Origin: Saccostrea cucullata
Taxonomy: Eukaryota
Reading direction: 5' to 3'
NCBI RefSeq assembly: GCF_032062105.1
Contig: NW_026924013.1
Span: forward strand, 124,001 to 188,000
Length of the DNA: 64,000 nucleotides
Each line of letters starts with the position of its first letter. Position 1 is the first letter of the stretch. This document shows, piece by piece, positions 9,001 to 12,000 of the stretch. A program made the position numbers.

Positions 9001-12000
9001 GCATGCAACTCACCATGCTCACAAACTTATAATCTTACTGAAACTGATTCTATATTGTACATTATTTTACAACCAAACTAGTAAAAAATATAAGCATAAT
9101 AATAGTATAATAAATCAAGATAATGGAAAACAATTATTCTATTAATTTTTTAAAGTATGAAAACAGGAATATTTAAATTTTTTAATTTCATATTGTACAC
9201 TACATCGTTCTGACATGATAAATAAAATCTGCTTGAATTTGATAATGCATGCTGAAAATGGTGCAGAAACTTTGCTATAATGTTACTTTGAAAAATGATT
9301 GTATGTGTGTAGCAAGCAGTGCGGATTCAAAGAACAGTATAAGGTTTGAAAATCCCGAGGAAAGCAAGAAAAAGCTGGAGAGGACAATTAAAATTAGAAC
9401 CAAGCCTGGTAGCTATCTTCCAGGTAAAGTCTGCATGATGGTCACGTGATCAGATCGAAAATGGTTGCCATTTTGAAAATGGCCATACACTTCATAAGAT
9501 TGGAATCAGCTGTTTTGATACTACCACTAAAGAATCGTATATTTCCACTAAGTATGCATTTTAAAATTGCAGTGCATCTCTTCTCGAGATCTATATGCGA
9601 ATGACTCATTATTATTTTTATTTTAGAACGTACATAATTATAGTTGTGGTATAGTATTAAGCCAGGTTAATGTTTTTGGTGCAGGTCTCATTTCCAAGTA
9701 ACTATAAGCCCTGTATGTTGTATTTACTGTGTATTATTATTATTATACTATCCATCATCATGTTTACCTTGAAATTAGCGTTTTTGACAAGAATTTTGAG
9801 GGCTTTTTAAATAAAGCAAATTCTTTTTGTGTATGGTAAAAATCTATATCGAAGTACAGTGTGATGATTTCACAAAATACCTACTTAAATGCAGAATAAA
9901 ATAGAATACTTACTAAACCACAAAATAAAAAAAATTTGGACAACAGAGGGGGTAGCAGCTTCATTTGTATGACATTGTAATCAACGTCCAACTTTTCCAG
10001 CACGGGCACACGTAGCAGGTAGGGAATCAGCCTCTCGCTCTAGTGTAGCTAGTAAAGCCATTAGTCGAAGCTCGTCAGGGTCTCAGTACTCCAAACCAAA
10101 CACTGCAGCCACTCAAAAATCTTCGGGGATAACAATCAATCTAACCATCAGTCCTCGCTCCGGGGACTTAGGTAATGGGGGTAGAGGCACAGAGTGACTG
10201 CGACCACTTCATTATTTCCAGTGTTAGAAAGTGTACTTGTATTATTGTAGTTTTAGAAAAATGGTTGACGATGGCATCGGTAAACATGTATATTTGCACG
10301 GTTGTACTGGTTTCTTTGGTAATTTATTAAAATCAAATTGGTCCATTATGAGAATGGGTGTATAGTTTCTGTGAAGTATGCAGTGCACTTTTGTCTAATT
10401 AGGCTACACTGGTCTTATTGATATGTATATATTGCATGACACCTTACTCACGTGTTAGTCACTAGAATCATCGTGTTAATCATGTTTACTGGATGTAGAG
10501 GGCTAGTTGATGGTAAATTTACCTTTTCTGGTGGAAATATTTTGAATGAAATATAGAAATCTAGTTTTACTGAAAAGAAGTTCCTTTCTCGGTGGACTTG
10601 CAGTGGTATGAGATTTTAAGAAAAATAACTTTTCACTTTTTAGCTGGAAAGACGCCTAGAGACCTGAAAAATTTTGATGACCTTTCTGATGTAAGTAAAA
10701 ATGACAAAATTTTTCTAATATCAGAGAAAACAGAAGCAAATTGATAAAACAGTCAAAGTACTCTTGAAACGGTCAAAAAAGTATTACACTAAATTAAGAT
10801 TTCAATCTTTATAAATATGTCATGAAACATTTTTGTGATAAATATGTATAGACATTATATAAGCTGTTGAGTTTTTTGACGTAACAAAAGGCCAATCCGC
10901 ATATGATTCGAATGCTGGAGAAAGAAAAGAACGTTCTTGTGAATCAGCTGAGGGATATGGAATGGAGAATGGACCAGGAATCAAAGGTACATCTACCAAT
11001 CCAGAATTTTATTTTTCACCTTTACATTAAAAGCACTGCACCTTGATATTCTAGGCAAATAAATATATGGTTCGGTCGCTTGAAAAAGAAAAGCAAATGC
11101 TTCAAGGGCAAATTAGAGACATTGAATGGAGACTTGATCAAGAGTCCAAGGTGAGGGTGAACTGGTCTGGTACAATTTGGAGCCTTTGTTGCCATCTTGG
11201 ACCAGGGCAGTTTGTACGCTAGAAAGTCTGTTTCTTTGTACAGTCAAGAATTTGTTAAATAAACATTGTTTTCTGGCAACATTCTGTTTTTTTGGGGGGG
11301 GGATCTAAAAAAAAATTCATTCCTAAAATTGAAACAGACGTTCTGTGTTGTTAGCGCTTTGCATGTTTGTTGTATTCGGATTCATTAACTAGTGCTGTGT
11401 TTTGTTCCTTGTTCAATACCCAATCCTAATTCTACAAAAAATTAACCTTTTTGATAATTTTATGTATGGATTTATATAACTTACATGTACATGTAGTATT
11501 TATATAGAGAAACGGACCTCTTAGTAAATTTTATCCAGAACTATCCCGGAATTACAAATAACTACTGTATTATAAAGCACAAATGCATGTCAAAGTGTAC
11601 ACATTATGCAAATGAAGTAAGAAGTAGCATGTAAACTTGTACAGCTAGCAAAATTACAAAACAGTAGTAGTATGTATAATAATAAACCATGGATAGAAAG
11701 ATTATATTTCACACCTGACGTTTCTAGGCACCTCTGAGAGTGTTCGATTTGCGAGTGTTGCACAGTGAGCGCAATTCACTGTCAAGTTGCGAGTACACTA
11801 CACAAAATAAATTGCTAACGCACCATTCAATATTTTCACCTTCAAATGCGACATCTGCAGATGAAATTGCCTAAATTTTAACACAATTCAAATGACCATC
11901 ATGCACGCAAACTGTTTTTGCGAGGCCGATTGCACACATAACATGTGCTGCTCAGTCATAAGGTTAGCGGTCTACGAGGTGGTCAGAGAGTTTGCAACAG

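What the first reader, a model, noticed from the sequence alone, without database searches (positions are those of the whole stretch)
10891..11150. Tandem duplicated 96-nt exons in CCDC169: likely mutually exclusive splicing of a coiled-coil segment
Seen: two same-length phase-0 exons with 21/32 identical residues but diverged codons, both with intact splice sites. The intron between them is only 68 nt (10987-11054), shorter than any other intron I modelled here (next shortest 76 nt). Copy a has a weak purine-rich acceptor (gtaacaaaag); copy b has a canonical one. Known: short donor-to-branch-point distance is a classic steric mechanism for mutually exclusive exons. As I recall, human CCDC169 has a single copy of this segment. 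Inference: an old, selected isoform switch in the coiled coil of a poorly characterised gene.
Basis: partly seen in the sequence, partly recalled or inferred. Interest (0 to 1): 0.7.

Follow-up and report, generated by a model that had tools for sequence, protein, structure and literature searches.

The report
Twin alternative exons in oyster CCDC169
An oyster gene for a small, conserved coiled-coil protein carries two diverged copies of one 32-codon exon side by side, and public gene models of related oysters use one copy or the other; this is an ordinary kind of isoform switch, though this case is not described in print.

Summary
Exons a (10891-10986) and b (11055-11150) are both 96 nt, phase 0 and AG/GT-flanked. 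They are 21/32 identical in protein and 63/96 in DNA, and a 68-nt intron separates them. Both map to the same positions (57/58-85 of 128) of Pfam DUF4600, the CCDC169 family, so the family profile holds one copy. The window matches Saccostrea cucullata LOC134265478.

Among 112 oyster database proteins, 57 carry a only, 52 b only, 1 carries a+b and 2 are fragments. Of the 98 RefSeq-style models, none has both and none has neither. The pair occurs in Saccostrea, Ostrea, Crassostrea and Magallana. The 98 non-oyster mollusc proteins seen each hold one segment. The duplication is therefore old within oysters (Ostreidae) but not pan-molluscan. Synonymous sites are saturated (pS 0.86) against pN 0.23.

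The mutually exclusive reading is supported at the level of annotation; no reads were examined. All 10 S. cucullata models seen use b. The steric mechanism is unproven: 68 nt is the shortest intron I found, but an apparently constitutive 76-nt intron lies in the same window, and one M. gigas model joins a to b. This is a new member of a known kind, of modest interest.

The parts
848..16777 (+). CCDC169-like gene (best match S. cucullata LOC134265478). About 13 coding exons, several of them cassette exons (4332-4379, 7057-7113, 8030-8140, 9312-9422, 10000-10170, 14047-14082, 14441-14542). Outer exon edges are approximate, taken from tblastn.
   Evidence: tblastn of database isoforms. P0007 (XP_062603668.1) is 100% identical in 10 of its 12 exon alignments; the other two run over splice boundaries. 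DUF4600 at 102 bits for P0007.
10644..10690 (+). Upstream constitutive exon (47 nt, ends in phase 0). Its donor is GTAAGT.
   Evidence: Present directly before the segment in all but a few of the oyster proteins printed with context; the exceptions begin inside or just before the segment or have a different upstream sequence (P0064).
10691..10890 (+). Intron before exon a, 200 nt. It ends in a T-run followed by a purine-rich stretch and AG (weak acceptor).
10891..10986 (+). Exon a, 96 nt, phase 0. Translation ANPHMIRMLEKEKNVLVNQLRDMEWRMDQESK. Donor GTACAT (weak). This is the ancestral-like copy.
   Evidence: DUF4600 31.3 bits, profile 57-85; 32/32 identical to the segment of S. echinata isoforms X8 and X9; unresolved among other pteriomorph sequences.
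10987..11054 (+). Intron between a and b, 68 nt, the shortest intron found in the window. If retained it reads into a stop at 11044-11046.
   Evidence: Candidate branch-point A's judged by eye lie about 31-43 nt from the donor (inference, not mapped).
11055..11150 (+). Exon b, 96 nt, phase 0. Translation ANKYMVRSLEKEKQMLQGQIRDIEWRLDQESK. Donor GTGAGG. This is the derived copy.
   Evidence: DUF4600 31.6 bits, profile 58-85; 100% identical to S. cucullata and S. echinata isoforms; the b copies of four genera form a clade (99/97) on a 0.45 branch.
11151..12858 (+). Intron after b, 1708 nt. Patches at about 11170-11235 and 11320-11344 are also recognisable in an unnamed Crassostrea-like retained-intron translation. 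11221-11234 and 11331-11344 are 13/14 complementary.
   Evidence: tblastn of P0022; repeat I22; fold z-score -1.95. This is a lead only.
12859..13013 (+). Downstream constitutive exon (starts in phase 0). Its 3' end is inferred from the GT at 13014.
   Evidence: It follows the segment directly in every oyster protein that carries the segment.

Best explanation
A single 96-nt exon of the CCDC169 gene was duplicated in tandem in the oyster lineage. This happened before Saccostrea, Ostrea and Crassostrea/Magallana diverged. The two copies are now used as alternatives, exactly one per mRNA in nearly all models.

The exon encodes the first ~30 residues of the second long helix of this two-helix coiled-coil protein. 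Swapping a for b keeps the invariant C-terminal half of the segment. Seven positions differ consistently in all four genera (3, 4, 14, 15, 17, 18, 23). These changes include loss of the proline at the helix start. Six of them lie off the predicted dimer seam and one lies on it. The likely effect is to tune what the helix surface binds, not whether the protein folds or pairs (inferred).

Copy b has the better splice sites and is probably the default in Saccostrea. Copy a has a weak acceptor and a weak donor and probably needs activation (inferred).

Double inclusion is kept rare by some block on removing the 68-nt a-b intron. I put the steric cause (5' splice site too close to the branch point) at about 0.4, with weak a sites and regulated competition as the alternative. 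Frame-shift/NMD and U2/U12 incompatibility are excluded.
For: - **Same profile positions.** Both exons match DUF4600 at profile 57/58-85 of 128. Single-copy isoforms match the profile in one stretch (residues 52-166 to profile 1-113). The a+b model needs two stretches.
- **Isoform pattern.** Of 112 oyster proteins, 57 are a-only, 52 b-only, 1 a+b and 2 fragments. Of 98 RefSeq-style models, 0 are a+b and 0 lack both. 17 equal-length pairs over all 112 proteins differ only in the segment.
- **Conservation.** Cross-genus identity is 28-29/32 for a and 29-31/32 for b, against 20-23/32 between a and b. pS is 0.86 and pN 0.23. The b clade has 99/97 support.
- **Outgroups.** All 98 non-oyster mollusc proteins have one segment. 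One version was seen per species in Mytilus (26 proteins over several species), Pecten maximus (17), Ruditapes (15), Mya (8), Dreissena (4) and Mizuhopecten (3).
- **Structure.** An AlphaFold2 model of M. gigas a-isoform P0063 (22-row alignment, mean pLDDT 75.4, pTM 0.46) has helices 8-91 and 109-177. The segment is residues 107-138, where pLDDT is about 88-90.
- **Homodimer test.** Residues 1-180 of P0063, two copies, scored 0.39 against a best control of 0.00 (3 controls).
  - Calibration on microbes: the mark was reached by 21 of 30 proteins solved as pairs of one chain and by 0 of 23 solved as single chains.
  - Calibration on eukaryotes: 17 of 29 (animals 7 of 16), only 1 of the 7 with no older solved relative, and 0 of 30 single chains.
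  - The runs agree in at least 73% of contacts and the partner's pLDDT is at least 68. The alignment was not used. The model supports binding and does not show it, and a parallel coiled coil may score from likeness to solved ones.
  - Interface residues 112, 115, 119, 122, 126, 129, 133 and 136 are segment positions 6, 9, 13, 16, 20, 23, 27 and 30, a heptad a/d pattern.
- **Short intron.** 68 nt is the shortest found. The 10 symporter introns measured are 76-232 nt.
- **Splice sites.**
Against: - No RNA reads were examined. Everything on usage rests on gene models whose evidence I could not see.
- All 10 S. cucullata models seen use b, so a may be silent in the window's species.
- One M. gigas UniProt-only model (P0003, A0A8W8LI40) has a then b in frame. 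If that transcript is real, the 68-nt intron, or its M. gigas counterpart of unknown length, can be spliced.
- Both exons are 3n and a+b has no stop, so nothing enforces exclusivity at the level of the reading frame.
- A 76-nt intron inside a conserved symporter domain in the same window (20818-20893, minus strand) is only 8 nt longer. Published limits are species-specific: donor to branch point under 50 bp in human (PMC5740500, passages) and introns under about 40 nt in C. elegans (PMC4165533, passages). The limit for oysters is unknown.
- The functional reading of the residue changes is inference from models of the M. gigas protein.
Confidence: 0.75

Rival explanations
1. The pair is not strictly exclusive. 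Exons a and b are two alternative exons under competing regulation, and a+b is a tolerated, in-frame minor product. No physical block exists; the weak sites of a and regulated competition give the mostly one-or-the-other pattern.
For: - P0003 (M. gigas, UniProt-only) holds a+b in frame.
- Both exons are 96 nt (3n).
- A 76-nt intron is apparently spliced constitutively in the same window.
- Exon a has a weak acceptor and donor.
- In human, most mutually exclusive exon clusters have no recognised enforcing mechanism (PMC5740500, passages read).
Against: - 0 of 98 RefSeq-style models from six annotation sets have a+b, and 0 lack both. Independent cassettes would be expected to give both classes.
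- Whether a short intron with usable sites would be removed quickly is my own reasoning, not tested.
Confidence: 0.25
2. In S. cucullata itself exon a is no longer used (b is constitutive). The a copy in the window is a conserved-looking relic or an exon used only in rare conditions.
For: - 10 of 10 S. cucullata isoforms seen (X1-X10) are b-only.
- Exon a has the weaker acceptor and donor.
Against: - The window's exon a is open, AG/GT-flanked and 32/32 identical to the a segment used in S. echinata isoforms X3, X8 and X9.
- I saw only the cluster members listed; models beyond X10 may exist.
Confidence: 0.12
3. The two exons are a constitutive internal repeat: both are normally included and the coiled coil is simply 32 residues longer in oysters.
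For: One model (P0003) has both. Both are in frame.
Against: 109 of 110 full oyster proteins carry exactly one copy. The a+b protein breaks the DUF4600 match into two stretches.
Confidence: 0.03

Closest known systems
Mutually exclusive exons derived from tandem exon duplication (as catalogued for human in PMC5740500 and for C. elegans in PMC4165533; both read as passages)
   Same: - Neighbouring exons of identical length and phase, with clear sequence similarity.
- They encode the same stretch of a secondary-structure element (a helix).
- The isoforms are identical except for the homologous segment.
   Different: - The pair is restricted to one bivalve family as far as seen.
- Both exons are 3n, so no frame-shift safeguard exists.
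- Usage is known only from gene models, and one model joins the two.
Steric-interference exon pairs (alpha-tropomyosin exons 2/3, recalled; C. elegans egl-15 5B/5A and let-2 9/10 with 14- and 30-nt introns, PMC4165533 passages)
   Same: A very short intron lies between the two alternatives. It is the shortest intron in the window, and the branch point for b must lie within about 45 nt of the donor of a.
   Different: - 68 nt is not far below the other introns here (76 nt). The C. elegans cases are far below that species' ~40-nt minimum.
- The branch point is not mapped.
- The oyster minimum is unknown.
CCDC169 / Pfam PF15372 (DUF4600) proteins
   Same: The profile match is above the curated cut-off, with two long helices. 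The protein is highly conserved across molluscs (48% mean column identity over 22 species).
   Different: Oysters carry two genomic versions of profile positions ~57-85. The profile and the other molluscs seen have one.
Docking-site/selector RNA-structure control of exon choice (insect Dscam, 14-3-3; human ATE1, PMC7797038 abstract only)
   Same: Patches just downstream of exon b look conserved in a second oyster, and two of them are 13/14 complementary.
   Different: - No complementarity linking these patches to sites upstream of a or b was found above what AT-rich sequence gives.
- Fold z-scores are weak.
- No DNA from other species was available to test covariation.

Membership tests
Tandem-duplicated mutually exclusive exon pair | Adjacent exons of the same length and reading frame with significant sequence similarity | tested here: met
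   96 nt each, phase 0, 21/32 aa identical, E 6e-16. Both hit the same Pfam positions.
Tandem-duplicated mutually exclusive exon pair | Transcripts exist that join each exon to the flanking exons while skipping the other | tested here: inconclusive
   Met in gene models of five other oyster species (57 a-only and 52 b-only of 112 proteins). In S. cucullata 10/10 models are b-only. No reads were examined.
Tandem-duplicated mutually exclusive exon pair | No transcripts joining the two exons (required when joint inclusion keeps the frame; criterion from PMC5740500) | tested here: inconclusive
   0 of 98 RefSeq-style models have a+b, but one UniProt-only M. gigas model (P0003) does.
Tandem-duplicated mutually exclusive exon pair | No transcripts lacking both exons | tested here: met
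   0 of 110 full oyster proteins lack the segment. This is annotation level only.
Steric-interference (short intron) exclusivity | Intron, or donor-to-branch-point distance, below the minimum the species' spliceosome can use | tested here: inconclusive
   The intron is 68 nt. The shortest other intron found is 76 nt (10 symporter introns of 76-232 nt). The branch point is not mapped and the oyster minimum is unknown.
Frame-shift/NMD-enforced exclusivity | [quoted passage not shown] | tested here: not met
   96 = 3 x 32. The a+b protein P0003 reads through.
U2/U12 splice-site incompatibility | One intron of the cluster has U12-type donor and branch consensus | tested here: not met
   The donors are GTAAGT, GTACAT and GTGAGG, all with AG acceptors. 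The U12 consensus is recalled, not scanned with a model.
RNA-structure (docking/selector) control | Conserved intronic elements that pair alternatively with sites next to each variable exon | tested here: inconclusive
   84 inverted pairs in 2.3 kb of AT-rich DNA, none standing out. One 13/14 pair coincides with patches conserved in P0022. Fold z-scores are -1.95 and -0.41. No DNA from other oysters was available.
CCDC169 / PF15372 DUF4600 | Match to the Pfam profile above the gathering score | tested here: met
   Exon a scores 31.3 bits and exon b 31.6 bits against a cut-off of 27. Database isoform P0007, identical to the window's exons, scores 102 bits.

The most novel reading that the evidence does not exclude
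The a-b pair is a true steric-block switch in a lophotrochozoan: two in-frame (3n) exons kept apart only because a 68-nt intron sits just under the oyster spliceosome's working limit. The pair has been held in place since before the oyster genera split. The exon choice re-surfaces the start of helix 2 of a conserved, functionally unknown coiled-coil protein and so switches its binding partner. That would give a natural ruler for the minimal 5' splice site to branch point distance in molluscs and a handle on CCDC169 function.
Probability: 0.3. Interest if true: 0.45.

Novelty: new member of a known kind. Interest (0 to 1): 0.3.

Why it matters
Exon pairs made by tandem duplication and used one at a time are rare, and where studied they are among the alternative-splicing events most often linked to real protein function (PMC8373072 and PMC9741552, abstracts only). 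This case sits in a protein that is strongly conserved across molluscs yet has no known function: 67 papers mention CCDC169, and none of the 15 listed is a functional study. The switch marks the first turns of helix 2 as a functionally sensitive surface.

The case also bears on how exclusivity is enforced. Both exons keep the frame, so a short intron is the only obvious candidate mechanism. That makes the pair a simple test bed for the minimal intron length in bivalves.

For annotation, exon a is intact in the S. cucullata window but is absent from the 10 models of that species that I saw.

Tried and rejected
- **Query length.** I resent it to the same tool as the stop-to-stop frames that contain each exon.
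- **Third copy.** tblastn of the isoforms against the window found only a and b.
- **RNA-structure control.**
  - The inverted-repeat scan of 10600-12900 gave 84 mostly AT-rich pairs with no clear docking/selector pattern.
  - Folding 11141-11360 gave z -1.95 and folding 10861-11180 gave z -0.41.
  - I kept this only as a lead.
- **Frame-shift/NMD and U12 mechanisms.** Both are rejected on sequence.
- **Symporter mapping by database hits.** The representative-library search with a symporter exon returned 150 unnamed hits. I could not exclude human-like transporters among them, so I did not fetch or analyse them. I mapped the symporter introns from Pfam matches to the window's own frames instead. 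The fourth symporter copy (from about 49.5 kb upward) was not mapped, and several junctions have two candidate lengths.
- **Literature.**
  - 'CCDC169' with 'mutually exclusive' gave 2 papers, both unrelated.
  - 'oyster' with 'mutually exclusive exons' gave 29 papers, 15 listed, none about this gene by title.
  - The intron-length terms with 'Crassostrea gigas' gave nothing usable on the minimal oyster intron.
  - The CCDC169/cilia search gave one table entry in a pig nasal-mucosa study.
- **Spliced model.** Exons were searched one by one, and whole proteins used in searches and folds were database entries.
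Full report
**What is in the sequence**

Positions 10891-10986 (exon a) and 11055-11150 (exon b) on the + strand are each 96 nt. Each is open from its first base, preceded by AG and followed by GT. Their translations are ANPHMIRMLEKEKNVLVNQLRDMEWRMDQESK and ANKYMVRSLEKEKQMLQGQIRDIEWRLDQESK. The two are 21/32 identical, BLASTP E 6e-16 for the one comparison.

At the DNA level 63/96 bases agree. 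Only 10 of the 21 conserved residues keep their codon. By Nei-Gojobori counts pS is 0.86 (saturated) and pN is 0.23. Similarity ends at the exon edges: 10/40 identical upstream and 13/40 downstream. The intron between the exons is 68 nt (10987-11054). The intron before a is 200 nt and the one after b is 1708 nt.

**Which gene**

Each exon alone matches Pfam PF15372 (DUF4600). Pfam describes it only as a domain of unknown function. The link to CCDC169 rests on the database names of the hits. Exon a scores 31.3 bits and exon b 31.6 bits against a cut-off of 27. Both match the same profile positions, 57/58-85 of 128, so the family profile holds this segment once.

I built, typed and searched no joined model of the window. 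The whole proteins used later are database entries that the searches returned. The frame holding exon b found 20 oyster proteins, and the frame holding exon a found 2.

tblastn of these proteins against the window lays out a gene from about 848 to 16777 on the + strand, with many cassette exons. Isoform X2 of Saccostrea cucullata LOC134265478 (P0007, XP_062603668.1) is 100% identical in 10 of its 12 exon alignments, and the other two run over splice boundaries. The S. echinata proteins show mismatches. The window is therefore S. cucullata or something very near it. It is not human.

**How the two exons are used in public models**

I collected 210 database proteins and located the segment in each. 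Of these, 112 are from oysters, 5 of them unnamed and oyster-like. Among the 112, 57 carry a only, 52 carry b only, 1 carries a followed by b, and 2 are fragments.

| Set | a-only | b-only | a+b |
|---|---|---|---|
| S. cucullata | 0 | 10 | 0 |
| S. echinata | 3 | 6 | 0 |
| Ostrea edulis | 9 | 3 | 0 |
| Crassostrea virginica | 23 | 5 | 0 |
| C. angulata | 9 | 2 | 0 |
| Magallana gigas, XP records | 10 | 18 | 0 |
| M. gigas, UniProt-only | 3 | 5 | 1 |
| Unnamed Logan/ENA, oyster-like (plus 2 fragments) | 0 | 3 | 0 |

Among the 98 RefSeq-style models, none has both exons and none lacks both. Over all 112 oyster proteins, 17 pairs of equal-length isoforms differ only inside the segment; 16 of these pairs are between RefSeq-style models and one is UniProt-only. 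This is the signature of mutually exclusive exons, but it is annotation. I saw no reads and cannot judge the evidence behind any model.

Two results cut against a clean story:
- The window's own species shows b only in the 10 models I saw.
- One M. gigas model (P0003, A0A8W8LI40) joins a to b in frame. Pfam needs two stretches to match that protein and only one for the single-copy isoforms.

**Age and direction of the duplication**

Crassostrea, Magallana, Saccostrea and Ostrea are all genera of Ostreidae, and all four have both copies. Identity across genera is 28-29/32 for a and 29-31/32 for b. Identity between a and b is 20-23/32.

The 98 non-oyster mollusc proteins each hold one segment. 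Species with several isoforms show one version:
- Mytilus spp., 26 proteins
- Pecten maximus, 17
- Ruditapes philippinarum, 15
- Mya arenaria, 8
- Dreissena, 4
- Mizuhopecten, 3

The exception is Nucella lapillus, with two versions on two different contigs, so two loci rather than one spliced gene.

In a tree of 26 segments, the b copies form a clade (99/97) on a long branch. The a copies sit unresolved among mussel, scallop, ark-shell and Solemya sequences. With 32 columns most forks are open. So b is the derived copy, and the duplication predates the split of the four oyster genera. It was not seen elsewhere in molluscs.

The limits of this evidence are these. Only the best 120 of 408 hits were listed. 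No pearl oyster or annelid was among them. No DNA of other animals was available, so a silent second copy elsewhere cannot be excluded.

**What the segment is in the protein**

The protein is very conserved across molluscs: 22 named species give 48% mean column identity, and the C-terminal half of the segment and the following exon are nearly invariant. An AlphaFold2 model of the 221-residue M. gigas a isoform (mean pLDDT 75.4, pTM 0.46) has helix 8-91, a linker at 92-108 and helix 109-177. The segment is residues 107-138, so it forms the start of helix 2, at pLDDT about 88-90.

I ran a two-copy prediction on residues 1-180 of the same protein.
- It scored 0.39 against a best control of 0.00 (3 controls).
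- On microbes the mark was reached by 21 of 30 proteins solved as pairs of one chain and by 0 of 23 solved as single chains.
- On eukaryotes it was reached by 17 of 29 (animals 7 of 16), by only 1 of the 7 without an older solved relative, and by 0 of 30 single chains.
- The runs agree in at least 73% of contacts and the partner's pLDDT is at least 68. The alignment was not used.
- The model supports pairing and does not show it. A parallel coiled coil may well score from likeness to solved ones.

The interface residues in helix 2 are segment positions 6, 9, 13, 16, 20, 23, 27 and 30, a heptad a/d pattern. In the window, a and b differ at 11 positions, 4 of them on that seam (6, 20, 23, 27), all conservative changes. 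Seven positions differ in all four genera (3, 4, 14, 15, 17, 18, 23), and only position 23 is on the seam. Position 3 is the proline at the helix start, which b lacks. I infer that the switch mainly changes the exposed face and the N-terminal cap of helix 2.

**How exclusivity might work**

Frame-shift/NMD is excluded because both exons are 3n and a+b reads through. The donors are ordinary U2-type: GTAAGT, GTACAT and GTGAGG. Retention of the 68-nt intron would hit a stop at 11044-11046. Exon a has a purine-rich acceptor and a weak donor, while b has better sites.

On the steric idea, passages I read set the limit at a donor-to-branch-point distance under 50 bp in human (57 clusters, 9%; PMC5740500). 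In C. elegans the limit is the species' minimal intron of about 40 nt, and the 14- and 30-nt introns between exclusive exons were never seen excised (PMC4165533). The limit is therefore species-specific, and I found no figure for oysters.

As a local control I mapped introns of three sodium:solute symporter paralogues in the window, using Pfam matches to the window's own frames and splice-site enumeration. The 10 short introns measured are 76, 91, 91 or 97, 103, 110 or 116, 127, 128, 136 or 142, 140 (a GC-AG intron) and 232 nt. A further junction (possibly 145 nt, GC donor) stayed unresolved. The 76-nt intron (20818-20893, minus strand) has a GTAAGT donor and joins profile position 341 to 341.

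Candidate branch-point A's for exon b, judged by eye, lie about 31-43 nt from the donor of a. That distance is short by the human criterion. By my recollection of insect introns, which I did not check, it is not clearly too short. I put the steric mechanism at about 0.4.

**An untested lead**

An unnamed Crassostrea-like protein (P0022) is exon b read on into its downstream intron. Its translation still matches the window in patches at about 11170-11235 and 11320-11344. Within those patches, 11221-11234 and 11331-11344 are 13/14 complementary (pair I22). Fold z-scores are weak, -1.95 and -0.41, and no DNA from a second species was available to test covariation.

**Comparison with what is known, and novelty**

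This works like the known class of tandem-duplicated, mutually exclusive exons. The features I could test on sequence are met. The features that need reads are met only through gene models, with one contrary model. It cannot be filed as a steric-interference case.

Both isoform types are already in RefSeq for five oyster species, so the raw fact is public. I found no paper describing it: searches found none, and one search listed 15 of 67 CCDC169 papers, none on molluscs by title. I did not open supplements.

My verdict is a new member of a known kind, of modest interest (0.3).

Noticed in passing
window 19000-24000 (-), 32200-38200 (+), 43300-46450 (-), 49260 upward (-): A cluster of three or four paralogous sodium:solute symporter (Pfam PF00474) genes in mixed orientation lies next to the CCDC169 gene. 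The exon order follows the profile in each copy.
   Followed up: partly
window 35380-36868: A tandem array of a 156-nt unit, 9.6 copies at 94% matches, sits inside an intron of the plus-strand symporter gene. Smaller arrays lie at 18118-18427 (148 nt x 2.1) and 27988-28081 (49 nt x 1.9).
   Followed up: no
window 22835-22974 (-): A likely GC-AG intron (donor GCAAGA) in the first symporter gene. The paralogues have GT donors at the homologous site.
   Followed up: partly
window 4332-4379, 7057-7113, 8030-8140, 9312-9422, 10000-10170, 14047-14082, 14441-14542 (+): The CCDC169 gene has many cassette exons, mostly in the linker and tail, giving 10-28 annotated isoforms per oyster species. Clam models are numbered up to X49 (Ruditapes) and X32 (Mya).
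   Followed up: partly
window 11170-11235 and 11320-11344 (+): Intron patches just after exon b are still recognisable in a Crassostrea-like retained-intron translation. Two of them are 13/14 complementary.
   Followed up: partly
window 58743-59012 (-): An open frame with a sub-threshold match to Pfam FAM47 (26.9 bits against a cut-off of 27).
   Followed up: no
database proteins P0112 and P0124 (Nucella lapillus): Two CCDC169-like proteins on different contigs have segment versions that differ at 5 of 32 positions. This suggests a gene duplicate or haplotig in that snail, not alternative exons.
   Followed up: no
window 11281-11297 (+): A run of T's followed by a run of nine G's lies in the intron after exon b. 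It dominates the predicted local fold.
   Followed up: no
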